In this document: piece by piece, positions 31,511-57,751 of the stretch
Layout of the letters: each line of letters opens with the position of its first letter
Numbering within the stretch: the stretch's first letter is position 1
Source of the DNA: Azolla caroliniana
Taxonomy: Eukaryota > Plantae > Polypodiophyta
DNA length: 64,000 bases
Reading direction: 5' to 3'
Assembly: GCA_043228905.1 (NCBI GenBank)
Contig: JBHGNT010000011.1
Coordinates: forward strand, 19,964,001-20,028,000
Made by a program: the position numbers and the translations under genes
The notes under the pieces: model-generated
Seen by the model: the letters and a program-made list of their open reading frames with translations, nothing else
What the model was told of the DNA's origin: nothing
Database searches by the model: none

Positions 31511-31522
31511 TGGTATCAGAGC
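31511..31522 (+). promoter_or_regulatory. C1 primer-binding site for initiator tRNA-Met
   Basis: TGGTATCAGAGC, 3 nt after the 5'LTR. Confidence 0.92.
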
Positions 31523-31536
31523 GACTGTTGCAGAAA

Positions 31537-37312: not shown

Positions 37313-40286
37313 TTAGCCTTCGTCCAAGATATCCAGAATACTCTGCTCTAGGGTATCCAATGCTTCTTCGGAAATATGTTGTTGCTGTGGCCGCTGCTCC
37401 GGATCCTCCGACTCTTGCTCCTTGGATGGCGTCTGATCGGCTCCCGGTACCGGTGGTTGTGGCGGTAATTCCTTTGTCAGCTGCTTTGCTGGATTTGACT
37501 CCGGTTGACTCGCCTCGGCCTTGTCTCCGTCTAGTCCTTGCCTCGGCGATGGCTCCTCATTGTTGAGGTTGACGGTCGCCGCCTGCTTTGCTTCTGCTTT
37601 CCGTAGCTTGGTCTGCTCATAACTTTCAAACTGGATTTGAGCATCCAGTCGATCATCGTCCAACTGTGCTACCAGTTGCCGGACCACTATTGACTGTTCC
37701 TCCGCCAGAGTTACAAAATCTTCTGCTAACTCATCTCTTACGGCGGTGAAGTCCTCCTTTGTTAGCATGTCGCAGTCGTCGCCCTCCTTCTGCCGGTTTT
37801 CCGCGTCCGCCCTTAGCAAGTGGAGCTCGGCTGTGTGCTTTGCCCATTTGTCCCACCATTGCGCGGAGCTTTCGTCAATCAAGCGTTTTGTCTTGTTCCT
37901 CCATGCCTGGACAATGAATTGGATCCGCTCCAGTCCCATCTTCGATTTGTCCTCCGCGACTTGTCGTTCTTCCTTCAATTGCTTGATCAACGTCACCGTG
38001 TTCGCCTCCTGCTCCTAGTAATGTGACAATTGGTTTTGGTATGTGATCTGCAACCTCTGCAATACCATTGCCGCTCTTTCCTTTTCTTCATAATGCTGCT
38101 TATGGAACTCCATACGTTCCTACGCGGCTTCCTCCAGTAGCGTGGTTCTTTCAGCTCGTTCCTCCGCTAGCACTGTTTTAGCTCGATGAACCTCCTGCCG
38201 GAGCTCTGTCATCTTCTCCTACCGCTTCTTATGCTCCGTATCCAGGTGCTTGTAGTCCCGGTGCAGGTGCTCAAAATCATCGGTCTTCAACTTCAGCTTC
38301 TGGTTGAGTTGCCGGCGAGCGCGGTCTTCCCGATCCTTCTGTTGACGGAGTTCTTCTTTAAGTCTTTCAATCTTCGTTTCCGCCATCCGTCGCAACTTCT
38401 CCTTTTCTTGCAGCACTTTCTCTTTCTCCTCCTTAAGCCGGTGATATGCCTGATGTCCTTTCTGCAGATTCTTTTCTGCCCGACGGAGGTTCTCAACAGT
38501 CTTTCTTTGCTATTCTTCTGCCGCTTTCTTCAAGTCCCTTTCCCGGTTGCGTAATGCTTCTTGTGCGGCCAATTCATCTTTCAATTCAGCAAGCTTGCGC
38601 CACCACTATCTTCGGGATTGGTTCTGTCTCCGGGGTCTTATTACTATGTACAAGTGCTGGAGTGTCTTCATTTTGTACCTCTACCAGAGTCACCAGTGCT
38701 TGGAGCCGTGGTCCGGTTAAGGCCATTTTGGCCAATTCTTCTGTGGCCAGGTCCAAGTCTTGTTCTAGGCTCCGGATCCTCGACCGGGCCGTCTCTAGTT
38801 CTCCGATTGTGACTAGCAACCGGTCCATCTGCGCTTTCTCTTCCGCCTCTATGTAGTGCACCACTCCGGCAATCTGTTCTCCAATCCACCGGAGCCATTG
38901 GCTGCCGGTGCCCTGTTGTTGTGTCTGCCCGGAGGGTTGGCTATTGGTGTCGCTGGCCAGTGGTCGGTTTTGTCTGGTTGCGCCGAGCTGCAACTCTGTC
39001 TCTGGTTGGTGACCACTTTCCTGTTCTGGTTCCGGTTGCGGCTCCGTTGGCCACTCCGCCTCAGATTGCTCTTGACCTGCCAGTGGGGTAGGCAATTGTA
39101 CTTCCGACACTTGCATTTCGGGTCTTGCTGTATCCTGACCCGCCGGTATAGTTTGTTGTGCAGGGAGCTCTGTGACCGGTTTTGTCTGAATCGGTTCCAG
39201 TTCCACCCTTGGTGCGGGATGCTCAGTGCGGGGTAGAGGCGTTCCATCCTTCTTTGGGTCTGACCGCTCCCTGTCCTGTTCAGAGGTGCTTGCCTTCTGG
39301 TGCTACTGGAGGTGCTGTAACGGTTCCTTCTCTGCTTTCTCCTCCTGAGTCCCGATGTTGATTTTTGCTGCCAAGGGGTCCGACTCTTGTTGAACCGGTC
39401 GGTGAAGTCTGATCTTGATTGGCCGTGCCGATGTCTCCTCCTGCGTTTCCGCCTGCCGCTTCCTATTGGCGCACTCCTTTGCCGCCTAGTCCGTGTCGGC
39501 CGCCTTCCCTTTGGTTGCCTTAGAGGCCAACAACTGCTGCCGTTTCGAGGCCATTTTCGGGGTGCCTTCGTTTGTTCTTCCCTGCTTCGTGGTCTTGACG
39601 GGTTTGATAGGTGGTGCCAATAGGGTGAGCCATTGCGCCACTGCTGTCCATATCTTCCGACCCTCCTTGCCTCTTACGGAGTTGATGGCCGCACAAAGGC
39701 CATCCGCAATCAGTATCGGCCAGTCCACCTTCACGCCTTCATATGTTGCTATGATTAAGCCGGCTCGGTTCTGAGGCATGCAAGGGGGTCGAGGGTATAC
39801 ATGTCCAAATTCATGGAGCACATGGGCAATCTCTCGAAATAGTGGATCTTCGCCGCCCTATGTCCGGTAGGCCTTGCTGGCCAAAGAGTATTCCCAAAAA
39901 TATTTTCGGAGCTGCTCCGGGGTAGGGTTGTCGATAGTGAAGATGCCCCCCTCTGGAAGGCCAATCAAAGCATGGATGGCCTCCTCCGTGATCAGTTCCG
40001 TGTCGATTTCATTTACTATCTTCTCCGCCTCTCGGTGCGGTGGCGCCTCCATGATTGTGAGGAAACCTTCTAACCCGTGTTACCTTAGCCACTTCTTGGC
40101 TGCTTCAGAGAGTGCTTGGCAGTCCATGGCTTCTTCGAGGTCGGTGAGCGCTGGTGAGGGGTGTGTTTGAGGAGGCTTTGTGTGCGTGGGCTCATGTCTG
40201 ATGATCTTCAATCACATGTGCTCGTTTGTGCTCCTCTGTTCGCGAAATGTGAAGGCTTCCATACGGTGGGAGTTTTCTTGTTGCAT
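37313..40286 (-). pseudogene. A1 extra sense ORF downstream of pol (~990 codons; globular N-terminus, Pro/Glu/Gln linker, long coiled coil)
   Basis: ORF pieces 39858-40052, 39486-39821 and 38586-39206 share a frame with an ATG at 40286. Pieces 38219-38416 and 37313-37996 follow after one frameshift. Confidence 0.7.
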
Positions 40287-40588
40287 GTTGGTGCCTTTTT
40301 TCTGACTCGCGCGTGTGCACGTCGTGTACTAAAATGATGTGCCATGTGGCGGCGGTTTAATATCCTATTAATAGCCCGTTTCGTACCTTTTCAAGTGCCT
40401 GTTCACTCCTTGTTCTTGCATGTGTCCGTTCACACCTCACCCTTGCATGATTTACTTTGATTTTTTTTATTTTTATTATTAATATTATTATTATTATTAT
40501 TTTTAATTTTTTAATAAAATTGTTTGGTTAGTTCGCATCCAGTCCCGTCGGACCCCTATCCAAATTGTGGGACTTGCCGACCGTGGGA

Positions 40589-42579
40589 CTACCTGCCATC
40601 GCGGCGTTCTTGCCGTTTGCCGGCTCGTGCTCCCTCTTGCCGATTGCTAATTGTGGTGTCCGGTTTTGTGTCGGCCTTTACTTGTTCAAATGGGTTCCTT
40701 GGCATGGGTCCATTGTATGGTTTGAGTTGGAACCCATTGACCCATTTACCCATAACCTCGGCGGTGAGTGTCCCTAACTGGTACAAACCGTTGAACTCAC
40801 TTGTAATCCAGTATGGTTCGGTCCACTGAAACTGTAGCTTCCCCGGCATCTTACCCATCCGGGTTTGGAATACTAGTACCGGCTTACCGATTCCGAACAT
40901 CTTTTCGTTCCCTTTTCGGTGACGATCCACGAACGCTTTCCTTCGTCGCTGCTCTAGTTCTAGGTGCATGATGCTGGCTAGCCGGTGTTCTTCCAATTTG
41001 CACAGCACGGCTAACCGGATAGCTTCCGATTCCTTCTCATTTAGGGGTTCCCGAATCTGTATTCGTAAACTCGGTACCTGGAACTCGACCGACATCACTG
41101 TTTCCAATCCGAATGCTAGGCGAAACGATGTTATGCGAATACTTGTCTTATATGCCGTTCGGTAGGCTGAGAGTGCACTGTGTAGCTTTGTATCCCAATC
41201 CGTCCGGTTCTCATTGATGATTTTTCGAAGGATGTTCTGTAGTGTTTTATTTGTTGACTCGGCTATTCCGTTGGCTTGCGGATAATAGGGAGTGCTCCGT
41301 TTGTGCACCACTGCATAAAATGTCGTCAAACTTTCCACTACTTGCCCTAAGAAGTGCCCACCTTGGTCACTTATTAGCTCTATCGAACATCCATACCGGC
41401 ACCAGATGTATTCATATAAATTTTTTTTCGTGGATGCCGCGGTGTTGTCGCGTAGTGCTTTGGCTTCCACCCATTTTGTGCAATAATCCGTAGCTACAAT
41501 TACGTACTGGTTGCCGGTTCTCATTGCTGGTGGTTTGAATGGACCGACAAAATCCAGCCCCCATTTCTGAAATGGTTCTAACGGTAGCACGGGCTGGTGA
41601 GGCATCCTGGCTTGTTCGGTTGGTTGGCCCATTCGCTGACATAGGTCACATTCTTTAGCATACCAAACTGCATCTTTCAATGTTGTCGGCCACCATAGTC
41701 CACTCTACCATATTTTCCTTGCCGTAGCGTCTCTGGCATAATGTCCTCCAACCACTCCGTAGTGTGCTCGAAAATATTATTTCCTTTTCGTCGTTGCGCA
41801 CTGCACGCCGCCATATGCCATCTGCGCCTTTGTGGTACAATGTGTCCTGTAATAGACAGAAGTGCCGGCTTTGAACCGCTAAGCGTTTCCTTTCGTCTAT
41901 GTTCATCTCCTCCGGGGGTAAACCAGTGTTCAGAAATTGGTGCATGTTGGTGAGCCACTTGTCTTCCTCTGCGACCGTACCATCCGTTGCCGTTTCTAAT
42001 GTAACTCTAAACAGCTCTACATCCGGAAAGTTGTCTGGGATGCCGTCACCGGTTTCGCCGGAATCTAACCGGCTCAAATAGTCTGCTACCGCATGTTGTA
42101 TGCCGGGTCAGTGGAAAATCTCGAACTCAAATTCTTGTAATAGTAATGTCCACCGGGCCAGCTTACCAGTGAGTGATGCTTTGGACACCAAGTAGAGGAG
42201 CGCTGAATGATCTACGTGAAAGGAAAATTTCCTTCCCAACAGATAGTGCCTAAACTTGGTGACACTGTAGATCATACCCAAGGCCTCCCTTTCCATTGTG
42301 GAATAATTACGTTCTGCTTGGGACAACTCCCGGCTGGCATAATACACTAGTCGGTACCATTTCGGTTCTTTAAGTTGCATAAGCGCGCTCCCGATTGCGA
42401 TGTCAGACGTGTCAATGAACACATGGAACTCTTTAGACCAATTCGGAGGTTGCACCACCGACGCTTGTGACCACAATACTTTTAGTGCTCGGTAAGCTTG
42501 GTCTTCTGTGTCCGTCCATTGGAACGGTGTCCGATGTACCGCGGCATGCAATGGTGTAGCCAGGTCTGCCAGATACCGG
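40589..42579 (-). pseudogene. A1 pol: RT C-terminus, RNase H and integrase
   Basis: FHVFIDTSDIAIG, NYSTMEREAL, VDHSAL, CDLCQR, WGLDFVGP, LISDQG, YPQANGIAE motifs. Confidence 0.92.
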
Positions 42580-43449
42580 TGTCGAGATATTACGCAAGTG
42601 CGTGTGGAATAGAGGCGGGACCGCGGGGGTCTCGAACCAAAGAGCAAGCGAGGGAGGAGAAAGAGAGAGAACCGGCTACGCAGGACCGGGGATACACAGG
42701 GACACGGCCCTTCAGCACGGAGAACGCGAACAGACACCGACACAGACGGATGCGAATGACTAAATATGTGTATTAACAAAATGGCTAACACGACTACAAC
42801 CCCCGATGGGGCACAGGTTGGTTGCAACCGAACAGGCCGGCGAACAGATGCCGATGCCTGTTCGCTTCGACGCACAAACGGGGAAATGGGGGGGGGTAGC
42901 AGGTCGGAGGTGCTGCCGGAAGCACTCGGGCGTTCCTCGAAACAGCGCGAGCCTCCCCGGAACCCTGCACAGAAAGCTTTGGAGCTCAAGAAGGAAGGAA
43001 ACAGAGAGAGCGAAGCGTCCAGAAACGGTCCGACAGCACTTCGTCCTCTCCGCGCCAGATCCCTGCAACAGCTCTTTCCCGCTCCTTATATAGGCCGACG
43101 AACAGGCCGTCGTGTCAGCTTTATTCCTTGTCCCTTTTGGACAGGGATCCGCTCCGTTTTTCACGGATCCGCGTAGTTACGCCGCCGACTCGTACAGTTC
43201 GCGCGCGCGACCGAAAAGACTGTTCGCGCGGTCTTTGTCTCCACTTGAGTTAGGGCCCGTTCCTGCCGATTATCCTCTCAATTCGTTTCTATGTACAACT
43301 CGGAGCGTGCGCGCGTGAAGAACCGGTTCCCACGCCTTGGTGCGCCGATTCCGCCTATGGACGGTTTTCTTCACGACATCCGCCCCCACCTAACCGCGCA
43401 TCCTCCGGTATGCGCCAAGAGAGTTGGGACGGAGAAAACCGGCCCGTCT

Positions 43450-46400
43450 TCACTCCTCGCCCGTCGGTTCTTCTTCATTTTTGGATCGTTCGTCACTGCC
43501 GACCAGGAGAGCCGGGTCTGGCTCGTCGTCGTGTCGCTTCTTGAACGCTTTGATCCGCTTCCCTGCAACCGGTATCGCCATTCTCGTGCCGTCAAGTTCC
43601 GCCAGGTGATATGTCCCGTTGTCATTGGCGCTCCGTACCACGTAAGGCCCGAACCACCTTCGTGCGAACTTCCGTGTGGCTCGGTGCTGGTTGTCGAGGC
43701 TGCTGTCGTAGACGAGCACCCAGTCACCTTCTTCGATTTTCTTCGGTCGTAGCCGGTGCGTTCGGTCGAACCGGGCTTTGTTCTTTGTCCTCGCCACCCG
43801 GAGCTTCTCCGTAGCCAGTGCCACGTCCTCCGGCCTCCGCTCGAGCTGTCGTATACGTGCGACCAACAACTCCTCCCGGCTCATCTCGTCCCTCCAGTCG
43901 ACCGTTGCCCACGAGGAGATCGTCCGTTCAATCGGCATGATCGGCGTCTGGCCGAACATGAGCTCCGTCGGCATGTACCCGGTTACCGAACTGTGCGTGG
44001 TCCGGTCTGCCCACAAAGCATAAGGTAGCAGCCGCGGCCAGTCACCGGCTCGGCCTCCGCATGCCCGAACCAACGCCTTGACGATCGGTCCGTGTCCGCG
44101 CTCCACCTTTCCATTCGCCTCCGGATTGTACGCAGTGGTGAGCGAGAGCTGGACTCCCAGCCGGTCGAACAGCTCCGCGGCTTCTTCGGCGTCCAACTCC
44201 CCTCGGTCAGCCACGATCTTCCCGACGCACCCGTACCGGCATATCACGTCCTCGATTAGGAACCGGCATACGGCCGCGGTCGTTTTGTTTGGAAGGGCCC
44301 GGCCTTCCACTTGGTTCGTCAGATCCTCCCGCGCTAGGACCAGGTACCGCATCTGTCCTACCCCCATTGGCATCGTCACCAGATCTACCATCCATTTGAA
44401 GTGGATGGTCGGAGGGTACGTGGGGTGAAGCTCGTCCCGATGTCGGACTATGGAGTGCATCTGACAGCTCCCGCAAGTTGTCACGAACCGATGCACGTCC
44501 CGGTACTGCCCCGGCCACCAATACTTCCCCTTTAGTTTCTCAAACGTAGCCCATGTTCCACGGTGTCCAGCCCAAGGGCTGTCGTGGTAGGCCGTCAGCA
44601 GTTCCTCCTGTTCTTCCTTCATCGCCACCACTCGGAGCGGGACGCCGTCCCTCTTCTTCGGGTGCTTCCATAGATGCCCATCTCGGAGAAAGAATCGATA
44701 TGCTTTCTTCCGGATCCGGTTGGCCTCGTCCTTCGTCCATGACGCATCGGGCGTCATCGTCTTCAAAAACCCGCCGATCTGCAGCCATTCCCCGTCGTAC
44801 TTGCTCGCGTCGAACTCGTTAAGCGCCGGAGTGCTCATCCCGTCGGTCGTTATGTATGCCGCCTCGAAGAAATCCACGCCGACTTCTTCGTCTTCCGAAA
44901 CCATGCCGCCCTCGTCGTCGAACCTCGCCCTCGAAAGCATGTCGGCCATGGCGTTGTCTTTCCCGGAAATGTGTCGTATTTCCGGGTCCAGGGACTTGAT
45001 GTACGCTATCCACCTGAGCATCGCCAGGTCCGGAGTCGCGCATCCGGAAACCATACCGAGAATCGGCAGGCAATCCGTCTCGATGATCACTTCCGTCCCT
45101 ATCAGGTAGTCTTTGTCGGCCTTAACCGCCGAAACAATACCCCAGAGTTCGCGTTTAACCTGGGCGTATCCTCGCTGCCGTTCACTGAGGACTTTCGCGC
45201 CGAATCGGATCGGAAACCGATTGCCGTCCTCGTCTTCCTGGTTCACGACCCATCCGATCCCGGTCGGACTGGTATCCACCGTTATGAATACCGGGGTACC
45301 CTTCCCGTAAACCGCCTTCCGGAGTGCCGGTGCCGCTGCAAGGGCCTCTTTCAGCTTCCGGACCGATTCCGCGTGCTTGTCTAGCCATTCGAACCTTCGC
45401 CCCTTTTTCAGCAACCCGTACAGTGGCTCCGCGACGTGTGCGTAATGCGGGATCCATATGTGGTAGAACGCGCATGCCCCCAGGAATCTCCGTACTTCCG
45501 TGACCGAGCTGCAGTCGGGCTTCATCGCGGAGATGGCTTCTACCTTCGCCGGAGACGGTTTCCGGCCATATGGTCCGCACAGGTGTCCGACCACCATGAT
45601 TTCTGACTGCCCGAAGGCCGACTTCTCCCCGGAGAAGGTGAGTCTCGCATCCTCTAGCCTTTGCAGCACCTTCTCGCAGTCGTCGACGTGCGTCGCCACG
45701 AATCGCCGGCATCCGTCCGGCCCGATCGTCTCGTCCTTTTCTTCCACCGGGCATCCCTTGATCGGGATGTCGTCCAGAAACGGCATGGTAATGTCCGGGA
45801 CACAGTCCCTCAGAACCTTGTTCATCGCATTCACCATGTGGGCCACCGAGTTGGTCCCTCCTTGCGGCAGTGTACACATCCGAACTAGGCCGAGGGGAGT
45901 TCGCATCGTCGTAAGGTCTCTGCTCTCCACGGCCAGCTGGAACTGGTCGTACCCTGAGTATAGATCCCCGACCGAGTAAATTGACCTTCCGGCGAAGGCC
46001 TCCGCGAACTCGTCTATGGTCGGTCCGATTCCTGCGTTCCGAATGGTCACTCGATTGACCGGCTGCAGGTCCTGGATGAAGCGCAGCGAACCGTTTTTCT
46101 TCGGTACGGTAAACCATCGATTCGAATATGGGGCGCTCGACGGCTCGAGAATTCCCATATCAACTTTCTGCCTCAGCAGCTCCATCAACTTCGGGATGTG
46201 AGCTCTCGGAACCGGGATTGGCTTGAGATTCCATGGTACATGCGGTACCGTGAATATCACCATCGGCTCCACGATCGTCGGGTCAACGCACCCGATTTCC
46301 TCCGGCGAGAATGCGAAGGCTTTCCCGTGCCTTCCGAGCATTCTCCGAAACCGGTCTTCCTCCGCCGGCAGTAGGAACCCGCCCCCACCGATTTTGAGCT

Positions 46401-46941
46401 CTCGGAGCGTCTCGTCAGTGAAGGTGTGCCCTATGCAGGCCGGATCTCGTAGACTAGGGTCTGATGCAACCCCTTTGATTCTCGACGCGCTGTCCTCCGG
46501 TAAGGGTGCCGCTACTGGCCTTACCTTCCGGTCCACAGTCTTGTACTTGGTGTTTACGTGGGCCGTCCGAACTGACTCGAGCCCTCGACCGAAGTCCGCG
46601 ATGACTTCGTACATCTCCTCGGAACACACCGGTATCGTCCGGTCGTCGTTAAGGCCTTCTTCGACTACCTTTCCCAGCATTCCCAAGGTGTCGTCGAATG
46701 AGACCGCCTCCACGGCTCCGTTGATTTCCTCGTCCGGGCCGAGAACTCCGCACGCTCGAAGTCTCGCCTCCGTCTTTGTTTTCTCTCGGCCGGCGATGCC
46801 GACCATCGCACACGCTCCGTTGTCGGAGAACAAAAATTCCCTACCTATGGTACAAGGTTTCTTCGGTTTTATCGTACAGGTGTGGGGTTTTCCCGGGGTG
46901 TCCGGACTGTCGCGGCCCCACGCCTTGGCAGCCCTCTCTAA
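43450..46941 (-). CDS. G3 pol ORF (RT-RNase H-integrase), probably reached by -1 frameshift from gag-PR
   Basis: Open from just after TAA 46956-46954 to the stop at 43450. DLYSGY, LPQG, PFLDDI, TVDTS, ETDC, H-H-C-C, VADRG and GPY motifs; no chromodomain. Confidence 0.93.
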   Translation of the reverse strand, partial: LERAAKAWGRDSPDTPGKPHTCTIKPKKPCTIGREFLFSDNGACAMVGIAGREKTKTEARLRACGVLGPDEEINGAVEAVSFDDTLGMLGKVVEEGLNDDRTIPVCSEEMYEVIADFGRGLESVRTAHVNTKYKTVDRKVRPVAAPLPEDSASRIKGVASDPSLRDPACIGHTFTDETLRELKIGGGGFLLPAEEDRFRRMLGRHGKAFAFSPEEIGCVDPTIVEPMVIFTVPHVPWNLKPIPVPRAHIPKLMELLRQKVDMGILEPSSAPYSNRWFTVPKKNGSLRFIQDLQPVNRVTIRNAGIGPTIDEFAEAFAGRSIYSVGDLYSGYDQFQLAVESRDLTTMRTPLGLVRMCTLPQGGTNSVAHMVNAMNKVLRDCVPDITMPFLDDIPIKGCPVEEKDETIGPDGCRRFVATHVDDCEKVLQRLEDARLTFSGEKSAFGQSEIMVVGHLCGPYGRKPSPAKVEAISAMKPDCSSVTEVRRFLGACAFYHIWIPHYAHVAEPLYGLLKKGRRFEWLDKHAESVRKLKEALAAAPALRKAVYGKGTPVFITVDTSPTGIGWVVNQEDEDGNRFPIRFGAKVLSERQRGYAQVKRELWGIVSAVKADKDYLIGTEVIIETDCLPILGMVSGCATPDLAMLRWIAYIKSLDPEIRHISGKDNAMADMLSRARFDDEGGMVSEDEEVGVDFFEAAYITTDGMSTPALNEFDASKYDGEWLQIGGFLKTMTPDASWTKDEANRIRKKAYRFFLRDGHLWKHPKKRDGVPLRVVAMKEEQEELLTAYHDSPWAGHRGTWATFEKLKGKYWWPGQYRDVHRFVTTCGSCQMHSIVRHRDELHPTYPPTIHFKWMVDLVTMPMGVGQMRYLVLAREDLTNQVEGRALPNKTTAAVCRFLIEDVICRYGCVGKIVADRGELDAEEAAELFDRLGVQLSLTTAYNPEANGKVERGHGPIVKALVRACGGRAGDWPRLLPYALWADRTTHSSVTGYMPTELMFGQTPIMPIERTISSWATVDWRDEMSREELLVARIRQLERRPEDVALATEKLRVARTKNKARFDRTHRLRPKKIEEGDWVLVYDSSLDNQHRATRKFARRWFGPYVVRSANDNGTYHLAELDGTRMAIPVAGKRIKAFKKRHDDEPDPALLVGSDERSKNEEEPTGEE

Positions 46942-46947
46942 AAATCC
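46882..46947 (-). promoter_or_regulatory. Putative -1 programmed ribosomal frameshift signal (G_GAU_UUU, 6-nt spacer, stem/pseudoknot)
   Basis: Heptamer 46947-46941, stem GGGCUG/CAGUCC, loop GUGGGG complementary to CCCCAC at 46887-46882. Same architecture in G1 and G5. Confidence 0.8.
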
Positions 46948-49064
46948 TCTCGGTTATCGGAACCGAGGGAGTCGCGGTTACGCTCGTGGTTCGGCCTAAC
47001 CGTAAAAAACTGGACCGAATGGCGGCCGTCCTGGCTCTTGACCCGCGCATAGGCCGAACCATTGTCCAGCACCTTGGTCTCCATTCGCGCCGCCGTGATG
47101 TACGGCTCTCCCAGTATGACCGGATGCGAAGACGTCTCCTGCACGAAGAAGTGCTGGTCAATCTCGACGTCGCCGATCTTGACTCGCACATTCGGACAGG
47201 CCCCGTGCAGTTCCTCGGTGGCGCGCGTTGCTGCCCTTATTTTCCACCCGTGCTTGGTGTTGATCGGCCATTTGCCCTTCTTATAGAAGTCCATGGACAT
47301 CAAATTGATCTCCGATCCGTGGTCCACCAAAGCTATCACCGGTTCCTGGACATCGCCGATCTTCACCGGGGTTTCCGTGGTCGCTCGGGCCCAGTGCGGT
47401 CTCGAATAGTGGCTTTCCGCCCACTCGTCTCCCAGCGCCATGTCGTCTAGGTGCGTCGTCCGCACTTCCACCGGTCTTTCCGGTTCTGTCTCCGTTGACA
47501 GCCTCTTCCGTTTCACCAAGTCCACGATGGAGTCGTGGAACTCCTTCTTGGCGATTCCAAGCACCTCCCGTAGCGACAGCTCCACCTTGCTGTCGAGGAT
47601 CCGTTCCTCCAGGACCTTTCGTAAGTCCGTGGTTCTTTCTATCTCCGTCCCCAGACGGTACCCGCCCTTCTGGGGTTTATCTTGCGTACCGGCCCTGCCG
47701 GCTTCGTCCCGTCGTGGCCCGGACCGGGTCTCGTATCGTTGTGAGGGCCCGGTCGTCCCGGGTTTTCCCACCCGCTTCTCTTCTACCAGAGCCTCGTAGT
47801 TCCGGCAAGCGGCTTCCACGAAGCCCGTCCTTTCCTCGACCGGGTCGCTCCACCCGGTCATCTCCCGTACCCGTTTCTCCGCACGGTCCGATTCCTCCCT
47901 TTTAAGCCCTGCACCGGCAAGGCCTTCCAGCATCGTCGGCCAGAATCCGGCTTTGCTTTCCTTTCGGGCCTCGCCGCCCCCGACTCGAATGCCGGCCGAC
48001 GCCGAGTAGTGGACGGTTTCCGCGTGTCGGGCCGCCGCCTCTTCCATCAACCTTTTCATACCACCCTTTCCGTCGTTTCGGCTCAGGGCCCTTCGGGTGT
48101 CGCTGGCATGCACCCGTCCTTCCCACAGGTACACCACCCGGTCCCTCAGCGCCTCCGCGAAGTCGCCGCAGTCCTTCCGAACGTGGCCGACTTCATCGCA
48201 CCACATGCACCTGTTTCCTGCCGCCGGCCGTCGGTCACGAGCCGGTTCGCCTCCTTCCCTTCGGGCCTGCGCGATTTGGAGGTCCTTTATCGCCTTCGTC
48301 AATTCCTCCAGCGCCGCTCCTCCGGTTGAGCCTCTGACTACGCCGGTCGAAGCCGAACCGGTTTCCAACCACTCCCGGGTCTCTTCCTTGCGCACCTGTG
48401 GCGCTGGTTCGAGCTTCCTTGCTGCGACCGAGCCCGACCCAGTCGCCCCGTTATCCGCCCATTCTCGCCGTTTGTCGAAACGGCCACAGACCTTCCTGAC
48501 AGCCGCCCAGTCGGTAGTGAGCCCGTCTTCGGTTTCCAGCAAGAGGCCCACTTGCTCCCGATCCCGCTCGTCGACCGACTTGACAAACAGCAAGACCCGG
48601 CTCGTGTCCAGGATGGTTCGGTCGAGCGCCGAAAGGCGCGCAAAGTTTTCCTCGAACTCCCGGAGGAGTGCCGACGCGTTTCTTCCCTTCCCCGGGGACT
48701 CCACCCATTCCATGAACCTTCGCTTCGAAAGCCGGAGCGCGTCGTCCAGCCCGTATTTCTCTAGGAGCCGACCTTCGAACTCCTCCCAGGTACGGCTCTC
48801 CGCCCGCACCTCGAGCACCTCCGCATGGATGCTCGGCATTGCCACTCGGGGAAAACCGGCAAGACGCCTTTCTTCCGGAATGTCCCGCATCAACATTTCT
48901 GCACCGTAGGACGCCAGATACTTCGTGGCATCCCTCCCATCGAACCGGCCGATCGTGCCGACGACCGCCTCAATAGCTCTGTCGAGGGCACCGGTACCCT
49001 CGCGCGCGTTTACGATCCGATCCACGGCCGAAGCCATGGCCTCTGCGAGATCCGACCCCCTCAT
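46938..49064 (-). CDS. G3 Gag-protease ORF
   Basis: First ATG ~23 nt after the PBS, CMWCDEVGHVRKDC knuckle, LVDHGSEIN...ILGEPY aspartic protease, ends REDF*. Confidence 0.93.
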   Translation of the reverse strand: MRGSDLAEAMASAVDRIVNAREGTGALDRAIEAVVGTIGRFDGRDATKYLASYGAEMLMRDIPEERRLAGFPRVAMPSIHAEVLEVRAESRTWEEFEGRLLEKYGLDDALRLSKRRFMEWVESPGKGRNASALLREFEENFARLSALDRTILDTSRVLLFVKSVDERDREQVGLLLETEDGLTTDWAAVRKVCGRFDKRREWADNGATGSGSVAARKLEPAPQVRKEETREWLETGSASTGVVRGSTGGAALEELTKAIKDLQIAQARREGGEPARDRRPAAGNRCMWCDEVGHVRKDCGDFAEALRDRVVYLWEGRVHASDTRRALSRNDGKGGMKRLMEEAAARHAETVHYSASAGIRVGGGEARKESKAGFWPTMLEGLAGAGLKREESDRAEKRVREMTGWSDPVEERTGFVEAACRNYEALVEEKRVGKPGTTGPSQRYETRSGPRRDEAGRAGTQDKPQKGGYRLGTEIERTTDLRKVLEERILDSKVELSLREVLGIAKKEFHDSIVDLVKRKRLSTETEPERPVEVRTTHLDDMALGDEWAESHYSRPHWARATTETPVKIGDVQEPVIALVDHGSEINLMSMDFYKKGKWPINTKHGWKIRAATRATEELHGACPNVRVKIGDVEIDQHFFVQETSSHPVILGEPYITAARMETKVLDNGSAYARVKSQDGRHSVQFFTVRPNHERNRDSLGSDNREDF

Positions 49065-49086
49065 CTTCTGCTCTTCTGCCGCCTCT

Positions 49087-49104
49087 TTCACGTCGGGTTC
49101 ACCA
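49087..49104 (-). promoter_or_regulatory. G3 primer-binding site complementary to tRNA-Trp(CCA) 3' end
   Basis: TGGTGAACCCGACGTGAA matches the plant tRNA-Trp 3' end TTCACGTCGGGTTCA-CCA (recalled sequence). Same PBS at 24611-24627, 53954-53971 and 63047-63064. Confidence 0.85.
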
Positions 49105-49907
49105 AAGATGTCGAGATATTACGCAAGTGCGTGTGGAATAGAGGCGGGACCGCGGGGGTCTCGAACCAAAGAGCAAGCGAGGGAGGAGAAAGAGAGAGAA
49201 CCGGCTACGCAGGACCGGGGATACACAGGGACACGGCCCTTCAGCACGGAGAACGCGAACAGACACCGACACAGACGGATGCGAATGACTAAATATGTGT
49301 ATTAACAAAATGGCTAACACGACTACAACCCCCGATGGGGCACAGGTTGGTTGCAACCGAACAGGCCGGCGAACAGATGCCGATGCCTGTTCGCTTCGAC
49401 GCACAAACGGGGAAATGGGGGGGGGTAGCAGGTCGGAGGTGCTGCCGGAAGCACTCGGGCGTTCCTCGAAACAGCGCGAGCCTCCCCGGAACCCTGCACA
49501 GAAAGCTTTGGAGCTCAAGAAGGAAGGAAACAGAGAGAGCGAAGCGTCCAGAAACGGTCCGACAGCACTTCGTCCTCTCCGCGCCAGATCCCTGCAACAG
49601 CTCTTTCCCGCTCCTTATATAGGCCGACGAACAGGCCGTCGTGTCAGCTTTATTCCCTGTCCCTTTTGGACAAGGATCCGCTCCGTTTTTCACGGATCCG
49701 CGTAGTTACGCCGCCGACTCGTACAGTTCGCGCGCGCGACCGAAAAGACTGTTCGCGCGGTCTTTGTCTCCACTTGAGTTAGGGCCCGTTCCTGCCGATT
49801 ATCCTCTCAATTCGTTTCTATGTACAACTCGGAGCGTGCGCGCGTGAAGAACCGGTTCCCACGCCTTGGTGCGCCGATTCCGCCTATGGACGGTTTTCTT
49901 CACGACA

Positions 49908-51315
49908 CCGGAGCATTCGGCTATGCCACCGAATTTGTCCTAAGAACCGGTTTAGTGCCTTTGCCGTGGTTGGTGCCGGTGCCTCCAAAATAGCTTTGAC
50001 CTTGTCCGGATCTACTGCAATACCGTCCTTGCTCACGATGTGGCCAAGTAATGCTCCGCTGGCCACTTTGAACACGCATTTTGCCGGGTTTAGGCTTAGT
50101 CGGTAAACCCTACATTTCTCCAAACATAGTCGGAGGTGCTAAAGGTGATCCCCTTTCCAGCTATAAACATCGAAGTCGTCCAAGAACACCTGCATGAATG
50201 CCGGAATGAATTCTCCGAAAATCTCCATGATGATCCGCTAGAAGGTTGTCGGCGCCGTTTTCAGTCCGAACATCATCACTACGGCAACAAAGACTCCCCA
50301 TTCGGTGACAAAAGCGGTTTTCTCCTGGTCGGCGGGGTGCATCCGGATCTGATTATAGCCGCTGAAACCGTCCAGAAAACTGTACACCTCATGACCGGCG
50401 ACCGCATCCAGGACTCCATCCGTGAATGGAAGTGGGAAGGCGTCTGTTACCGTAGCCGCATTCAATTTCCGGTAGTCGACGCACACTCTTATATTACCGT
50501 TCTTTTTCGGTACTACAACTATCGGACTGAGCCATGTGGCTTTCTTTACCAGTCGGATGAAGCCAACCCTTAGCAACTTGTCGATTTCTTCTTTGACTTT
50601 TGCTGAGTAATTCGGGTTCATCCGGTAACATCATTGCGCTACCGGTTTAGCGTCTTTACTCAGATGTATCTAGTGTTGATACAACTGAGGATTGAGTCCC
50701 CGCATGTCCTCGTAGGACCGGGCGAACACATCGCGAAATTCTTTTAGGAGTGTGATGATTGCCGTTTTGTTCTCCGGGGTCATTTCCTTGGCGATGTGCA
50801 CCGGTCTTGTGTCCTCTGTGGTACCTAGGTTTACCTCTTCTAGTTGGGATGCTTTTACGCGCTGCGACACCGCCATGTCTCTTTCCAGTGCCTCCTGTGC
50901 TTGTCGTAACTCCCGGATCGCTTCTTTATCCGGTTCCTCGTCGGTCCCGTCCGGTTGCAGTATGTACGATGATATTGCTTCGGCTACATCAATTTCGAAT
51001 AGAGGTACGATTTTCCGATTTTCTTGTAAGTATTGATCGACCTCTTCGTTTGCCAATCCTTCCAGCATGTTGACACATTCCGCATATAGCGGCGTCAATT
51101 CCTTGCCGGTACCGGACCGTGGTTGAGTCGATACTCACACTTTTGCTTTTCCAAACTGGAACGTAATTATATTCTTCCTTTAGTTTTGCTCGATGTGTGT
51201 TGTTTTTAACCAAGGGCGTCCCAACAATAGTGGGTAAGCTCCTTGAGCCTGTAGCTGGAGGACTACTGCCGAAATGCGAAATATGTGACCCTCGATGGTC
51301 ACTTTCAGATCGCGT
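49908..51315 (-). pseudogene. A1 pol: protease C-half and RT
   Basis: WLSPIVVVPKK, CVDYRKLN, FLDGFSGYNQI, MFGLKTAP, VFLDDF motifs with stops. Confidence 0.92.
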
Positions 51316-51412: not shown

Positions 51413-52064
51413 TTCACAGACACGCAGAAGCGAGAAGGAGAGATATAGAACGGAACACTCGATTACAATAACAAGAGATTACAATAACACTTGATTACAA
51501 TAACTCCGACGGTTACAACCGGCAAGGCGGCGACGGACCCGACACGGGGACCCTACCCACGCACACAGACGGAACACACTGGACCCAGAGAAACGCAGAA
51601 GGAAAAGCCTATGCTGGCAGCGCACGGGCTACCCACGAAGCAGAGGCGTCGAACTCCCCTGTACCCACAGAGAATGACGGTCGAAGTAGGAGAGAGAGTT
51701 CGGCTCTCGGTCTTGCAGCACTTTGTCCTCCTTAACGCGCGATCCCTGTTCCTTCCTTCTCTCCCTCCTTAAATAGTTCCCCAAAAGGGGGTGCCCCTTT
51801 TTCCTTAGCCAAACTGCTTTATTCCCTGTCCCTGTCACACAAAATCCCCTAATAAATGTACACTACCTAGTATTTACACCAGTCGCCCTAATTACGAATT
51901 ATGTACAATATATCACTCCTTGCGTCCACCCGTGTAAGAGCCGGTTCATGCACCTTTTTCTTCGATTCTGCCTATGGCCGGTTTCCTTCACGACATCCAC
52001 CCCCACCAAACCGCGCATCCATCGGCATGCGCCAGAGACGGGTAGACACCGAAGAAAACCGGCT

Positions 52065-52874
52065 TCACTCGTCGTTCTCCGATTCTCCGCCGAACCCGAA
52101 CTGATCGTCGTTGTTACTCTTGCTCGCCGGCTCCGGCTCGTCTTCGAACCGCTTCTTGAACTCTTTGATCCACTTCTCGGCCACCGGCACAGCTAACCGT
52201 GTACCATCGAGTGCCGCGAGGTGGTACGTGCCGTTGTTGTTCGCACTCGTCACCATGTAGGGCCCGAACCACCTCCTAGCGAACTTTCGCACCGCCTTGT
52301 GCTGATTGTCGAGGCTGCTATCGTACACCAAGACCCAATCGCCTTCCTCGATCTTCTTTGGTCGCAACCGGTGCGTCTGGTTGAACCGGGTCTTGTTCTG
52401 CTCCCTTGCGGCCCGCAGCCTTTCCTTCGCCCGTTTCATGTCCTCCGGCCTCCGCTCGAGTTGCCGAATCCGCGCCGCCAGCAACTCCTCCCGGCTCATT
52501 TCGTCCTTCCAATCTACCGCCACCCATGAAGAAACCGTCCGTTCCACCGGCATGATCGGCTTATGTCCGTACATCAACTCTGCCGGCATAAACCCTGTTA
52601 CCGAACTGTGCGTAGTTCGGTCCGCCCATAGTGCGTAAGGGAGGAGCCGCGGCCAATTCCCGACCTGCCCTCCGCATGCACGCACCAACGCCTTTACGAT
52701 CGGCCCGTGCCCACGTTCTACCTTCCCGTTCGCCTCCGGATTGTACACCGTAGTGAGGGAGAGTTTAATGCCTAGCCGGTCGAACAACTCCTCAGCTTCC
52801 CGCGCATCCAGCTCTTCCCGGTCTGCCACGATCCTCCCGACGCACCCGTACCGACACACTACCTCTTCGATCAA
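52065..52874 (-). pseudogene. G4 truncated integrase (core second half plus GPY/F)
   Basis: CRYGCVGRIVADRE, YNPEANGKVERGH, RRWFGPY; homologous to the G3 integrase. Confidence 0.88.
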
Positions 52875-53324
52875 GAACCCTAGGTCTCACCCGGTTCGTT
52901 ACCCTAGGTCTCACGCGGGCACTCGGCCCGGCCGCCGGGGTCTCTTGAACCGGTGCGTGTAAGGTAGCAATGCCGCCGCTCGTCGATGCTATGCCCGTAG
53001 CCACCTCCATTCGGACATCGTCGTCCGTGGCTACCCCGCCTCCGTATATGCAAGCATCAATTATGCTTGCCGCCTCCTCTTCCACGGTCTCCATACCGTT
53101 GTCTCGGTTGCCCGCCTTGCCGCCGCCACCGCCCGTCGCTCTAGGTCTCACGCCGGCAATCGGGCCGACCGCCGGTGCCTCTAGGGCCGGTGTGTGTAAG
53201 GTCGCGGCATCGCCGCTTGTCTCCTCCTCACTCGATGTTTCGGGCCTCCATGCCTGAACTCCCTCATGTCACCGTCCCCGACCTCGTCCTCGGTCGATCT
53301 TTCTCCGTATGTCGAGAGGGTGGC

Positions 53325-53931
53325 TCACTCCGCACCCTCTCCCGTGGTACCGATGTACCATTCTCTCTCGGCCTCCTCATCCTCCGATCCGCTCGGGCCC
53401 GACTCCGCAATAAGCCCTTCTTTGGCTTCGATTTGTGCCTCTACGATCTCGTACGCTTCCCGCACCAAGGCTTCGATGTCGAGCTCCTCCGAACCTATTT
53501 GCGTTGAGCTCTCTTCCGACGGTAGTGCATAGTCGGTCACCGCTCTCTCTTCTACGCCGCTCGCGGGCCACCTTGTGGCCGACCGCCTCTCATCGCATTG
53601 TATGCACGCCCATTCCACCTCGTTCCAATCTTTAGTGAGGCCGTACGCCCCTTCATCGTCTTCGAGGTAGGGAAAAATGGCCATTCTCCCCCTTTCGTTG
53701 ACCGACTTCAAGAATAGTGGGACCTTGTCCGCCCCCATCGATTCTTGATCCCGGACTGAAAGTTGGGAAAACCGGAGATCGAACTCCCGGAATGCCTTCA
53801 TTGCGCTTCGAGGAGCCTTTGCCGACGACACCCATAGATCGAACTCACGTCGATCGTACTTGTATGCCTCTTCCTGTCGCGTAATCCCTTGCCATTCTCG
53901 TAATTACTTCTGCGATGTCTCCGTCTTCCAT
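53325..53931 (-). pseudogene. G4 shortened, frameshifted gag
   Basis: REFDLWVSS...FREFDLRFSQLS...LFLKSVNER aligns by eye to G3 gag. Confidence 0.7.
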
Positions 53932-55078
53932 CTCCTTCCTCCCTTGGCGCCTCTTCACGTCGGGTTCACCAAATATGTCGCGTTGCTACACGCGTGCGTG
54001 GAGAAGGGCGGGACCACGGGGGTCTTGGACTAAGGAGTAGAGGAGAAGGAATCGGACATGGAATGGAAGCTTTGCTCAAGAAGAAGAAGAATGAACAAGA
54101 GATTAGATCGAACAAGAGGAAGATGGAGACAAGATTATCAACAAGATATATTTAAAATGAAATGAACGATTACAAAATGGTGGCCGCACCAAACGACTAC
54201 TCGAAACCCTAACCGACAAAGATGAAGATAAAGATAAAGATAAAGAAACCCTAACCCTAACCCTAACACTCGACCTATGTGGTATACCTCACACACTCCA
54301 AATAGGCAACCCTCACAATGGTGCCTTCCCTCTCCTTTTATAGCACAAGGAGGGAAGACCGTTTACAAAAGTGAGACTAAAATGTCCCCTTTCATTCAAA
54401 GGGGATATTTGCCTTGATTTGGGGAGGGTGAGATTGATGGCCCCTTAACTCCCACCTCCACACAAACAACTAGGTACCTATGTACCGCATAGTACCTCTC
54501 TCTCTCTCTCTCGCGTGGATGTGCGCACAAGACCACATCACCTTTATACCTTAGGGATCCTATGGGGCATTTCTAGCACCATACACTTTACCCTTATTAC
54601 TATTACAAATACATTATGTACGTGTGCAACGTTGCACATCACTCTTTGGCTCTTGTTGCTAGGGTTTCCGCTTGTGGACGAAAATCTTCACGACAACGGG
54701 CTACCCACGAAGCAGAGGCGTCGAACTCCCCCGTACCCACAGAGAATGACGGTCGGAGCAGGAGAGAGAGTTCAGCTCTCGGTCCTGCAACACTTCGTCC
54801 TCCTTAACGTGCGATCCCTGTTCCTTCCTTCTCTCCCTTCTTACATAGTTCCCCAAAAGGGGGTGCCCCTTTTTCCTTAGCCAAACTACTTTATTCCCTG
54901 TCCCTATTGACAAAGATATGCACAAAATCCCCTAATAAATGTGCACTACCTAGTATTTACACCAGTCGCCCTAATTACGAATTATGTACAATATATCAAT
55001 CCTCGCGTCCACCCGTGTAAGAGCCGGTTCATGCGCCTTTTTCTTCGATTCCGCCTATGGCCGGTTTTCTTCACGACA

Positions 55079-57442
55079 ACGTATTAATCAAGTCGGCCAT
55101 ACTGAGCTTGTGTCTGCCATCTAAAGCCAAAACGGGCAGGGTTCCCAGTCATGGATTCCTAGAGTGTTACACGTTCGGAGGCTGATCATGTTCATGCCGG
55201 ATCCTCCATCAATAATCGTGCCGAGTAGCTCTTTTCCTTTCACGATGACTGTGATTGCCAGACTGGTCGTGTCTACCACTGTCGGTCCTTCCTCCGGATT
55301 TGAAAAGAATGCGGGAGCCACTGGCGTGTCGGCTGCCGTCCTTCCTATCTTCAATCCTTACGCGAAGCGTGGTACCATTTGCAATAGCCGGCCTAACGGC
55401 AACATTATTTGGCATTCTTGTAACGCTTGCCATGTTGGGTTTTCGGGCTGCCCTATGCCGGTAAGTTCTTCAACATTCTCCTTTTGTTGTTTGAGCTCTG
55501 CCACCTTTCGCTCGTTTGCCTTCTTTACCCATTCGGTTGCCTGCTTCCGGATGGCTTCTTGAGTTTCCCACTCCGTGGCTTTGCCTTTTAATCTTGTAGT
55601 GACTTGTTTACCATGTGTACCGCTGGTCGCTTGTCGTAGCTCTTCGTTGGACATTGGTTACTATAGTGGCCTTCTTGCCGGCAATAATAGCAGTACGCCT
55701 TCTGGGTGTTGCTGGATTCAGCGTTTGTGCCTGCACCCGGTTGAGGTCCTATGGTAAGTGCTTGGTTTTGGTCCAGTTGGCTGCTTGGAGCGCCCTTTTC
55801 CAGTTCCCGTGGATGACCCCCCTTTTTGTTGAAATGTCGTTTCTTGTTGAAATTCTTTTTGTGTTGGTAACCTTGACGGGGATGGTCGTCCTACTTGCCA
55901 TAGTCGTCCCGTCGTTGGTTGTAACCAGGGGAGTGATCCCGGTTGTATCCCTCGCACCGTCCATTATAGTCTCGGTATCTATCTTGTCTGTCATACCGGT
56001 CATAAGCGTCTCTTCGATCGTTGTACCGGACATCTTGTGCCGGCCGGTATCGCTCCTCTCGCCACCAACGTTCTTCTTCTTCCTCCCAGTTGCTTCGTGG
56101 TTCAATTTGCCAGACCGGTGGTGCTTGCCGATTTAACAAGTTATACTCACACCGTTCCATTGTGTGACTTTTGGAGTGGCAGAGCAAGCATTGGGAATGC
56201 ATGGTGCATTCCAGCGCCGAATGTCTAGCATTCAGGCATGTCGTACATTGAATTGCTTGCCGGAAACGAAGGTCCTCATCTGTCGGTAGTGCACGATGAA
56301 GTGCGCCCATGGTTAGCCATGAACTTGAGTTTTCCATTTCCCGCACTCGGTCGATTACTTGATCTATGTTGTTGGTGCGGAAATCAATGACGATGCACAC
56401 AGTTCGTAAGGGTTCCCGGAGTGCTGCTAAGAATATGGCCTTTATTTCTTCCTCCGGTGGTGTTTGGCTGAGCTAACTGTGGATCCGCTGGAACCGGATG
56501 ACAAACTGTTGAATGTTCTCCGTTGGTTCCTGCTGGATACTGTAAGTTAAGCCTACCATTTCCCGTTGGTCCATCTCCTTGTGAAAGAAATGCAAGAATT
56601 TTGTTTTTAATGTTTCAAACGTGGGGATGGTGCTGGGATCTTGTGTTCGGTGCCATCTGGCGGCCGGTTCCTCTAGGGTCATGCCGAACTTTGCCCTTTT
56701 TGAGCGTTCCTCTTTGGCCGCATTTAAGCGTTGGGACACATGGTTTGCCTCCCACGTTTGCTGAAACGCATGGACGTGAGCTTCCGCGTTCGGATCATCC
56801 CGGTATCTGGGATATTGGATCGACATATCGTCGTCTGGTGTCGGTACGCGGGTTGGTGGTGTCAGTGGTCTTTCCTCCTCCTCTGTCGGCGTCAGAGGTC
56901 TTTCCCAGTCTTCTATCGCCGTCAGAGGTCTTTCCTGCTCCTCTTTCGGTGTCAGAGGCTTTTCCTCGACTTCCGGTGTCGGAGGTATCTCGTCCTCGAC
57001 TTCTGGTTCCGGAGTGTGCTCGACTTCTGGTGCTGGAGGTTCCAGCGTTGTCAATTCTGGTTCTGGTGTCGGCAAGGTATCCAACTCCTCGTCCTCCGGT
57101 CCGTCTGGGGTGTCATTACTGTTGTGGTAGTTCGTCTGCGCAATGTATTCCCCGTCCGAACCCGATTCAAAAGCTGAAAATGCTTTGGATTCGCCCTTGG
57201 CCTGCTGCCAATGCCTAGAGAAGGGAATCCGCTTCCCGGAGGCTACTTAGGCTGCTTCCTTCGTCTAGGTAGTCGTTTTGTTGTAAACGAAGTGACTCCT
57301 TGGCAACTCTCCGGATCACTTTGGAAAATGAGAGATCCGCTCTGATTTCTTCTACCGCTTGCTGGAAAGCCTCTCGCTTCCTCATCCGTTCAGCAAGTCT
57401 CCTTGGTCGTTCCGTAACCGGGTCGTTCGTTGGTCGCGTCAT
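55079..57442 (-). pseudogene. A1 gag and protease N-half
   Basis: Retrotrans_gag-like AHVHAFQQTW...AARWH, two zinc knuckles (CTTC..H...C, CLLC..H...C), IIDGGSG protease; multiple stops and frameshifts. Confidence 0.85.
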
Positions 57443-57751
57443 CCATTCCCGCCGTTGTTCGCTGCTTATATAGCCAGGGCCTTAACTTTCCTATCTATGT
57501 GGGATATTTCACAGTTTGTTTTTTCTTTTTTTTCTTTTGCAAAACTTTATACCCACATAAGTTGACACTTACATGTCTGTTGCGGCTGTAGTAAAGTGCA
57601 TCCACAAGCTCTTCAAGACCTCCATCCTTTTATAGTTTTATGTGATTTTCACACCATTGCCGAAAATCTTCACGAAATCTCCACCCCCACCAAACCGCAC
57701 GTCCTCTGGTACGTGCCAAGAAGAGAGAGTGTGAGATTTCGGCTACGGTGA

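What the first reader, a model, noticed from the sequence alone, without database searches (positions are those of the whole stretch)
42580..49907. Intact, young, tRNA-Trp-primed Gypsy that does not fit the usual seed-plant clades
Seen: two intact ORFs, 799-bp LTRs with only two differences found, an 18-nt Trp-type PBS and gag starting ~23 nt after it. The RT reads YSNRWFTVPKKNGSLRFIQDLQPVN and FLDD. Established: common plant PBS types are Met-i, Asp, Lys and Arg. Inference: the RT signature and 4-bp TSD recall fungal Ylt1-like elements rather than chromoviruses, Athila or Tat. Several divergent families coexist here, implying an old radiation, and this copy may be transposition-competent.
Basis: partly seen in the sequence, partly recalled or inferred. 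Interest (0 to 1): 0.72.

Follow-up and report, generated by a model that had tools for sequence, protein, structure and literature searches.

The report
Fern retrotransposon with protease-RT frameshift
A young, intact jumping gene, likely from a water fern, shares its primer type and target site with the already known moss 'Phygy' group, and likely makes its reverse transcriptase by a one-base backward ribosome slip at a conserved signal placed after the protease gene, a layout I did not find described for plant elements.

Summary
In detail: 7,328 bp, 799-bp LTRs with 2 differences, CCGG duplication, 18/18 match to the genome's own tRNA-Trp, two open ORFs. The claim that it fits no described plant clade is weak. 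REXdb's Phygy clade has a tRNA-Trp PBS, a 4-bp NCGN duplication and no extra domain; 33 of 33 copies with a TSD here are NCGN. No Phygy reference could be put in a tree, so membership is likely, not shown. The host is likely a water fern. The fungal link is partly supported: the nearest named RTs outside land plants are fungal and Chara, and chromovirus and Tat-like elements fall outside. New here: ORF1 is Gag plus protease and ORF2 (RT-RH-IN) lies in the -1 frame. The junction carries G_GAU_UUU, a stop and a covarying stem with a likely pseudoknot (42 of 51 relatives have the heptamer at the stop). REXdb lists Phygy's ORF layout as not determined. Frameshifting itself was not measured. An earlier scan note also named Phygy for related elements in this genome; none on the frameshift was found.

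The parts
42576..42579 (.). Target-site duplication CCGG (left copy), NCGN type
   Evidence: family-wide NCGN
42580..43378 (-). 3' LTR, 799 bp
43379..43391 (-). Purine-rich tract abutting the 3' LTR (11 of 13 purines), likely plus-strand primer
   Evidence: same tract in 34 of 35 delimited copies
43450..46953 (-). ORF2, 1167-aa open frame: RT (FLDD), RNase H, integrase (HHCC, DDE); no chromodomain, no additional RNase H
45583..46107 (-). Reverse transcriptase core (RVT_1)
   Evidence: E 1.2e-12
44998..45387 (-). RNase H
   Evidence: E 1.4e-17 and 7.9e-16
44122..44619 (-). Integrase zinc finger and core
   Evidence: E 1.7e-17 and 9e-05
46882..46947 (-). Predicted -1 frameshift signal: heptamer G_GAU_UUU (46947-46941), ORF1 stop (46940-46938), 6-nt spacer, stem 1 (46934-46927 with 46911-46904), likely stem 2 (46921-46916 with 46887-46882) forming an H-type pseudoknot
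46938..49064 (-). ORF1, 708 aa: Gag (CCHC knuckle at aa 286-299, DUF4100) plus C-terminal aspartic-protease domain with a DHG motif
46950..47357 (-). Protease domain at the end of ORF1 (weak Pfam matches, below curated cut-off)
   Evidence: Asp_protease_2 in 18 of 22 aligned relatives at E<=1, best 5e-4; its profile hits the Pfam-labelled protease of fungal and Chara relatives
49087..49104 (-). Primer-binding site, 18 nt, complementary to tRNA-Trp(CCA)
49109..49907 (-). 5' LTR, 799 bp, TATA-like box at about 49621
49908..49911 (.). Target-site duplication CCGG (right copy)

Best explanation
This is a young, structurally intact Ty3/gypsy LTR retrotransposon, likely of the Phygy clade and likely from a water fern, whose family inserts at NCGN sites and is predicted to prime on tRNA-Trp and to make RT-RNase H-integrase by a -1 ribosomal frameshift after the protease. 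Shown: structure, PBS complementarity, NCGN duplications, the -1 offset of ORF2, and conservation and covariation of the junction signal. Inferred: one genomic RNA from the 5' LTR is translated mostly into a 708-aa Gag-protease; a minority of ribosomes, slowed by the stop codon and the downstream stem or pseudoknot, slip back one base on G_GAU_UUU and read on (...EDF then LER...) into a fusion of about 1,870 aa, which fixes a high ratio of Gag and protease to RT and integrase. Integrase cuts with a 4-bp stagger around a central CG.
For: Phygy traits in REXdb Additional file 5: TSD 4 bp 100% NCGN, tRNA-Trp 81%, no extra domain; the text names Phygy as the only plant group with a sequence preference. 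Own genome: 33 of 33 copies with a TSD are NCGN (35 of 40 fetched copies delimited) against 6% CG in flanks. PBS 18/18. Frame: 47 of 51 metagenome loci with both PR and RT hits have RT in -1; 42 of 51 have GGATTTT directly before the ORF1 stop; 35 of 35 delimited own copies carry it; 3,585 pattern matches in the genome against 2 for the reversed control. Stem 1: 96.2% of 288 cells paired, 6 of 8 pairs with two-sided changes, slid controls 22-44%. Stem 2: 5 or more Watson-Crick pairs in 28 of 36 sequences against 19 of 180 control windows; mean 5.39 against 4.74 (maximum 5.19) when loops and partners are swapped. Pairwise identity is 0.73-0.79 in the stem arms measured and 0.31-0.43 in loops and flanks, while the encoded amino acids vary. 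G_GA heptamers are known -1 sites in umbraviruses and dianthoviruses, and a nearby stop matters in PEMV2 (PMC5009743 passages). RNA reads of a related species show no joint or indel at the junction. Host: 4 phytochrome loci, best hit Pilularia 89%, other top ferns 85-86%, mosses 78% or less.
Against: No REXdb Phygy, Selgy or Ylt1 sequence was in my trees (the FASTA supplement is too large). Length 7.1-7.3 kb is below the Phygy range of 7,656-9,968 bp. Frameshifting was not measured. A single-sequence fold of the signal is not exceptional (z 0.32) and does not form stem 1 (the method cannot draw pseudoknots); the window copy has one mismatch in stem 1. The 36 aligned signals were picked by their heptamer, and most come from one series of related metagenomes, so they are not independent. 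16 of 118 proteins with at least 60% RT identity have protease fused to RT: 15 Riccia gene models with inconsistent junctions and one unnamed ORF, so the split may not be clade-wide. RNA depth at the junction was low (about 6-17 per run) and from another species. The protease fold was not confirmed (pLDDT 45).
Confidence: 0.75

Rival explanations
1. The family is not Phygy proper but a separate, unnamed fern-and-liverwort lineage that shares Phygy's primer and target site.
For: No Phygy reference was tested; REXdb calls Phygy specific to Physcomitrella; elements are shorter than the Phygy range; no hit named Physcomitrium appeared among 120 listed Pol and 18 Gag homologues.
Against: Three traits coincide, one of which (NCGN) REXdb finds in no other plant group. 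REXdb treats size as weak for classification. Phygy is already reported from a liverwort (PMC12885004 passages), and liverwort proteins are the nearest named hits (58-65% over the best full-length matches).
Confidence: 0.13
2. RT-RH-IN is made without ribosomal frameshifting, by splicing across the junction, internal initiation or transcriptional slippage; the stem has another job such as packaging or dimerisation.
For: Riccia gene models join PR and RT. Ogre elements separate GAG-PROT from RT-RH-INT by a spacer that is removed by splicing (recalled). Frameshifting was not measured.
Against: Fixed -1 offset, near-invariant slippery heptamer ending at the stop, 6-nt spacer and covarying stem match the standard -1 signal; no joint or indel at the junction in RNA reads of three runs (low depth).
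Confidence: 0.1
3. It is a TatI element or an aRH-less Tat (Z1/Z2), since TatI also has a 4-bp TSD and tRNA-Trp PBS.
For: TatI: 4 bp, tRNA-Trp 75%; aRH-less Tat lineages exist in non-flowering plants (PMC10508981).
Against: No additional RNase H; aRH-bearing elements of the same genome share only 27-30% RT identity and lie on the other side of a 100% branch, while fungal RTs share 40-43%.
Confidence: 0.02

Closest known systems
Phygy clade, non-chromovirus Ty3/gypsy (REXdb; Neumann et al. 2019, PMC6317226: passages and Additional file 5 read)
   Same: tRNA-Trp PBS, 4-bp NCGN TSD, no chromodomain, aRH or extra ORF, internal region almost wholly coding.
   Different: Described from the moss Physcomitrella, 7.7-10 kb, ORF layout not determined. 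Here likely a fern, 7.1-7.3 kb, intact copies with Gag-PR and RT-RH-IN overlapping in -1 frame.
Fungal Ylt1-like / SN_1006 elements (PMC2864245 passages; Tca3 in PMC4139406 passages and section 9)
   Same: No chromodomain; Tca3 has a 4-bp TSD and two long ORFs; fungal proteins (Tilletia, Phenoliferia, Zalerion) are the nearest named RTs outside plants and two share DUF4100 above cut-off.
   Different: Only 36-39% RT-RH identity; Ylt1 and Tca3 themselves were not compared, so 'Ylt1-like' for these fungal rows is my inference; their protease motif is DTG/DSG, not DHG.
Alpharetroviruses (RSV/ASLV) and umbra-/dianthovirus -1 signals
   Same: Works like ASLV in putting protease with Gag and shifting -1 into RT-IN (recalled). 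Uses the G_GAU_UUU heptamer with a nearby stop as in pea enation mosaic virus 2 (PMC5009743 passages).
   Different: Unrelated by descent; no env; the stimulator here is predicted to be a local H-type pseudoknot, not the long-range pairing of those plant viruses.
Ogre and Retand (Tat)
   Same: Also split the polyprotein after the protease.
   Different: They use a spacer or a single stop, have aRH, 5-bp TSDs and Arg/Lys primers; no overlapping GAG-PROT / RT layout is listed as prevailing for any Ty3/gypsy lineage in that table.

Membership tests
Ty3/gypsy superfamily | LTRs with TG...CA, PBS, PPT, domain order PR-RT-RH-IN | tested here: met
Phygy | RT/RH/INT phylogeny grouping with REXdb Phygy references (primary criterion) | not testable with these tools
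   REXdb FASTA and element table too large to read; no named Phygy protein retrieved
Phygy | 4-bp TSD with NCGN motif | tested here: met
   33 of 33 TSDs among 35 delimited of 40 fetched copies; 15 of 15 with boundaries set by the window LTR alone
Phygy | tRNA-Trp PBS | tested here: met
   18/18 to own tRNA-Trp(CCA)
Phygy | No chromodomain, no additional RNase H, no extra ORF; coding region fills the interior | tested here: met
   Pfam at E<=0.1; ORFs span 5,615 of 5,730 internal bases
Phygy | Length within 7,656-9,968 bp (descriptive; REXdb calls size weak for classification) | tested here: inconclusive
   7,122-7,338 bp in 34 of 35 delimited copies, slightly below the moss range
Chromovirus | Chromodomain at the integrase C-terminus and RT grouping with chromoviruses | tested here: not met
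   no Chromo hit; chromodomain-bearing own elements fall outside
Tat (TatI, Ogre, Retand, Z1/Z2) | Additional RNase H and/or RT grouping with Tat | tested here: not met
   no RVT_3 hit; own aRH-bearing elements 27-30% RT identity, other side of a 100% branch; published Tat Z sequences not tested
Selgy | tRNA-Ala PBS, about 5 kb, GAG overlapping PROT-RT-RH-INT | tested here: not met
   Trp PBS, 7.3 kb, split after the protease
Fungal Ylt1 clade | RT/INT tree grouping with Ylt1 and Tca3 | tested here: inconclusive
   groups with named fungal proteins at SH-aLRT 100, but Ylt1 and Tca3 were not among the rows
-1 programmed ribosomal frameshift signal | Slippery heptamer in the right frame, short spacer, conserved downstream structure | tested here: met
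-1 programmed ribosomal frameshift signal | Measured -1 product | not testable with these tools
   needs a reporter assay, ribosome profiling or proteomics

The most novel reading that the evidence does not exclude
Phygy is the land-plant branch of a fungal and charophyte gypsy supergroup, reaching from liverworts and mosses into ferns, and it expresses its enzymes like an alpharetrovirus: protease is made with Gag, and RT-integrase comes from a pseudoknot-stimulated -1 frameshift at G_GAU_UUU-stop; it also uses a non-canonical DHG protease and a CpG-centred integrase.
Probability: 0.45. Interest if true: 0.62.

Novelty: new variant of a known kind. Interest (0 to 1): 0.45.

Why it matters
What remains would fill two stated gaps. 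REXdb could not determine Phygy's ORF layout and calls the link between plant non-chromoviruses and non-plant elements unclear. The review read here says a 2003 survey found separate frames in only two plant element types, both +1. A conserved, covarying -1 signal between protease and RT gives a compact, directly testable plant recoding element, and a young family with strict NCGN targeting is a good case for studying sequence-specific LTR integration in plants.

Tried and rejected
IMG/VR scan: no relative. Literature searches that found no description of a -1 protease/RT frameshift in Phygy or fern gypsy elements: (listings only, except the papers named in the report); DUF4100 gave 0 papers. 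The library lacks most subscription journals, so absence is weak. Naming the nearest unnamed proteins failed: no organism names for 10 clusters, and only 4 of 20 more distant ones had organism names. ESM Atlas gave generic RT/RNase H clusters. AlphaFold of the protease: pLDDT 45, not used; its profile found no PDB sequence at E<=10. Single-sequence RNA fold of the signal: z 0.32. DNA contigs of four runs contain the empty-site join, but the flank is a repeat family with many copies, so this is not evidence of insertion polymorphism. A moss host was my first guess and was rejected by the phytochrome hits. The careful ML tree did not finish; both trees are quick searches with SH-aLRT only, midpoint-rooted, on rows chosen as search hits.
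Full report
1. Observation. The element lies on the minus strand at 42580-49907. Its LTRs are 799 bp with 2 differences, it is flanked by CCGG on both sides, and a purine-rich tract abuts the 3' LTR. ORF1 runs 708 aa from the ATG at 49064 and ORF2 is a 1167-aa open frame overlapping the end of ORF1. Pfam finds RT, RNase H and integrase in ORF2 and DUF4100 in ORF1, with no chromodomain and no additional RNase H at E<=0.1. The CCHC knuckle, FLDD, the RNase H acidic residues, the HHCC finger and the DDE triad are present. The window has no tRNA gene. A pattern for the tRNA 3' arm gave 63 places in the genome against 0 for the control; 6 of 8 loci scanned hold tRNA-Trp(CCA), and the PBS pairs with its 3' 18 nt without a mismatch. 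With the moss rate quoted in PMC7466625 (9e-9; passages), 2 of 799 differences give about 0.14 million years; no fern rate was checked.

2. Host and family. The window lies in a 523-Mb assembly. It has four phytochrome loci; for the one tested, the best hit is the water fern Pilularia (89%), then other ferns (85-86%), with mosses at 78% or less. The host is therefore likely a water fern. An RT query returned 150 scored matches, all 98-100% identical, of 17,305 first-look candidates. I fetched 40 of the top copies with open pol frames, which favours young ones. Of these 35 could be delimited, 33 had a 4-bp TSD, and all 33 were NCGN (ACGT 12, GCGT 5, CCGT, CCGG, ACGG and ACGC 4 each); median LTR identity was 99.86% and 7 pairs were identical. 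That script preferred boundaries giving a TSD, but, which set boundaries by the window LTR alone, gave 15 of 15 NCGN. CG makes up 6% of flank dinucleotides. This copy sits inside the RT-RH region of an older, broken gypsy element of another lineage. PolyA RNA runs of a related species laid 332, 196 and 698 reads of about 12 million across the element, in both orientations, with none on the outermost bins: low-level transcription of relatives, not of this copy.

3. Classification. In REXdb (PMC6317226; passages; Additional file 5 whole; Additional files 1 and 3 unreadable) Phygy has 186 elements, TSD 4 bp 100% NCGN, tRNA-Trp PBS 81%, 7,656-9,968 bp, no extra domain, ORF layout ND, and is the only plant group with a target-sequence preference. 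TatI shares the TSD length and primer but always has aRH. The present family matches Phygy in all these traits except a slightly shorter length. The nearest named Pol homologues are from the liverwort Riccia, and Phygy has been reported in a liverwort (PMC12885004 passages). PMC6911290 (passages) confirms 4-bp TSDs for Phygy. No fern paper appeared among the 18 titles holding the word Phygy (listing only); the fern genome paper read (PMC6786969 passages) gives no lineage names in the passages seen.

4. Fungal link. A search of 1.84 billion representatives gave a second tier at about 35-42% identity; 4 of 20 looked up carried organism names: Tilletia, Zalerion, Phenoliferia and Chara. In RT-RH (68 rows) and RT (40 rows) trees the window element and Riccia rows form a clade, inside a larger group with the fungal and Chara rows (SH-aLRT 100), apart from chromodomain-bearing, aRH-bearing and host elements of the same genome (labels). 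DUF4100 is above cut-off in Riccia, Tilletia and Phenoliferia proteins and weak in Chara. PMC2864245 (passages) and PMC3248453 (passages) describe Ylt1-like elements as the main non-chromovirus gypsy group of fungi, and Tca3 has a 4-bp TSD (PMC4139406). Limits: quick trees, midpoint root, rows chosen as hits, no Ylt1 or REXdb reference. PMC5014426 (passages) added nothing decisive; PMC10508981 (part 1 of 3 and passages) supplied the Tat Z rival.

5. The frameshift signal. The protease is at the end of ORF1: weak Pfam matches in 18 of 22 aligned relatives, and its profile hits the Pfam-labelled protease of fungal and Chara relatives. ORF1 ends GAG GAT TTT TAG. Of 80 metagenome loci, 51 had both PR and RT hits; RT was in -1 in 47, and GGATTTT stood directly before the stop in 42. 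Two of the four other-frame cases are contigs whose PR lies downstream of RT, and two are broken. A pattern for heptamer, stop and stem start matches 3,585 places in the genome against 2 for the control. For structure I aligned 36 distinct signals (3 window, 33 loci; duplicates, near-duplicates and loci without the heptamer left out, L137 among them). Stem 1 (columns 14-21 with 37-44) is 96.2% paired with two-sided changes in 6 of 8 pairs; slid controls give 22-44%. A G-rich loop run pairs with a downstream C-rich run (5 or more Watson-Crick pairs in 28 of 36 against 19 of 180 control windows; swapping partners lowers the mean from 5.39 to 4.74), with clear compensations in divergent members. 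A stop follows the heptamer directly in 31 of 36, using all three stop codons. Identity peaks in the stem arms while the encoded residues vary. This is the standard anatomy of a -1 signal; G_GA heptamers and a nearby stop are documented for umbraviruses and dianthoviruses (PMC5009743 passages from the 300,000 of 449,034 characters held). At protein level, 82 of 118 hits with at least 60% RT identity start 100-300 aa before RT without protease, and 9 of 18 Gag homologues end in DF.

6. Against. Frameshifting was not measured. The single-sequence fold gives no support. Most aligned relatives come from one series of metagenomes; only L132 and L152 come from other sources. Sixteen close proteins have protease fused to RT, 15 of them Riccia gene models whose junctions disagree (possibly predicted introns, not checked) and one unnamed ORF. 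The signal was not tested in moss, liverwort or fungal DNA. The protease carries DHG in 21 of 22 aligned relatives instead of the usual DTG or DSG, and its fold could not be confirmed, so its activity is assumed.

7. Verdict. A real, young, intact element of a large family, most likely Phygy in a fern, so not a new lineage. The value lies in the predicted protease/RT -1 frameshift with a covarying structure and in the supported kinship with fungal elements. Earlier scan notes: one names Phygy for related elements in this genome; a word search for the frameshift and a sequence search found none. Interest 0.45.

Noticed in passing
window 47324-47316 (minus strand), ORF1 aa 581-583: Protease motif is D-H-G rather than D-T/S-G; kept in 21 of 22 aligned relatives and in several Riccia proteins, while fungal and Chara relatives have DTG or DSG.
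   Followed up: partly
L049-L072 versus window LTR: LTR subfamilies (about 717, 800 and 810 bp) are only 67-80% alike while internal regions are 94-98% alike, suggesting rapid LTR turnover or exchange.
   Followed up: partly
window 30902-36226 (+): Intact young Ty1/copia element: 606-bp LTRs 99.67% alike, 1374-aa ORF with gag, IN and RT.
   Followed up: no
window 37616-42575, 49909-51307 and 55080-57465 (-): Older broken gypsy host element, interrupted by this element and by another insertion; its family groups with aRH-bearing elements but has no aRH. It may be the family for which earlier notes report a tRNA-Arg copy in place of the PPT; not checked.
   Followed up: partly
window 21836-24610, 51624-55078, 57764-63047 (-): Three further Trp-PBS relatives, broken or internally deleted; two keep the junction signal (22428, 60331).
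   Followed up: partly
window 20640-21450 and 27224-27940: Arrays of a 105-bp tandem repeat next to one of the Trp-PBS relatives.
   Followed up: no
G000 C8:17.80-17.82 Mb, C16:4.99-5.11 Mb, C5:10.10-10.11 Mb: Clusters of tRNA-Trp 3'-arm matches, some at regular 0.9-1.3 kb spacing: tandem tRNA genes or tRNA-derived repeats.
   Followed up: no
PBS of window and loci L074-L151: The gap between the LTR end and the PBS varies among families from about 1 to 5 nt.
   Followed up: no
window 45182-46159 (-): A 325-aa open frame overlaps RT in another frame and recurs in most near-identical copies; probably a by-product of high GC.
   Followed up: no
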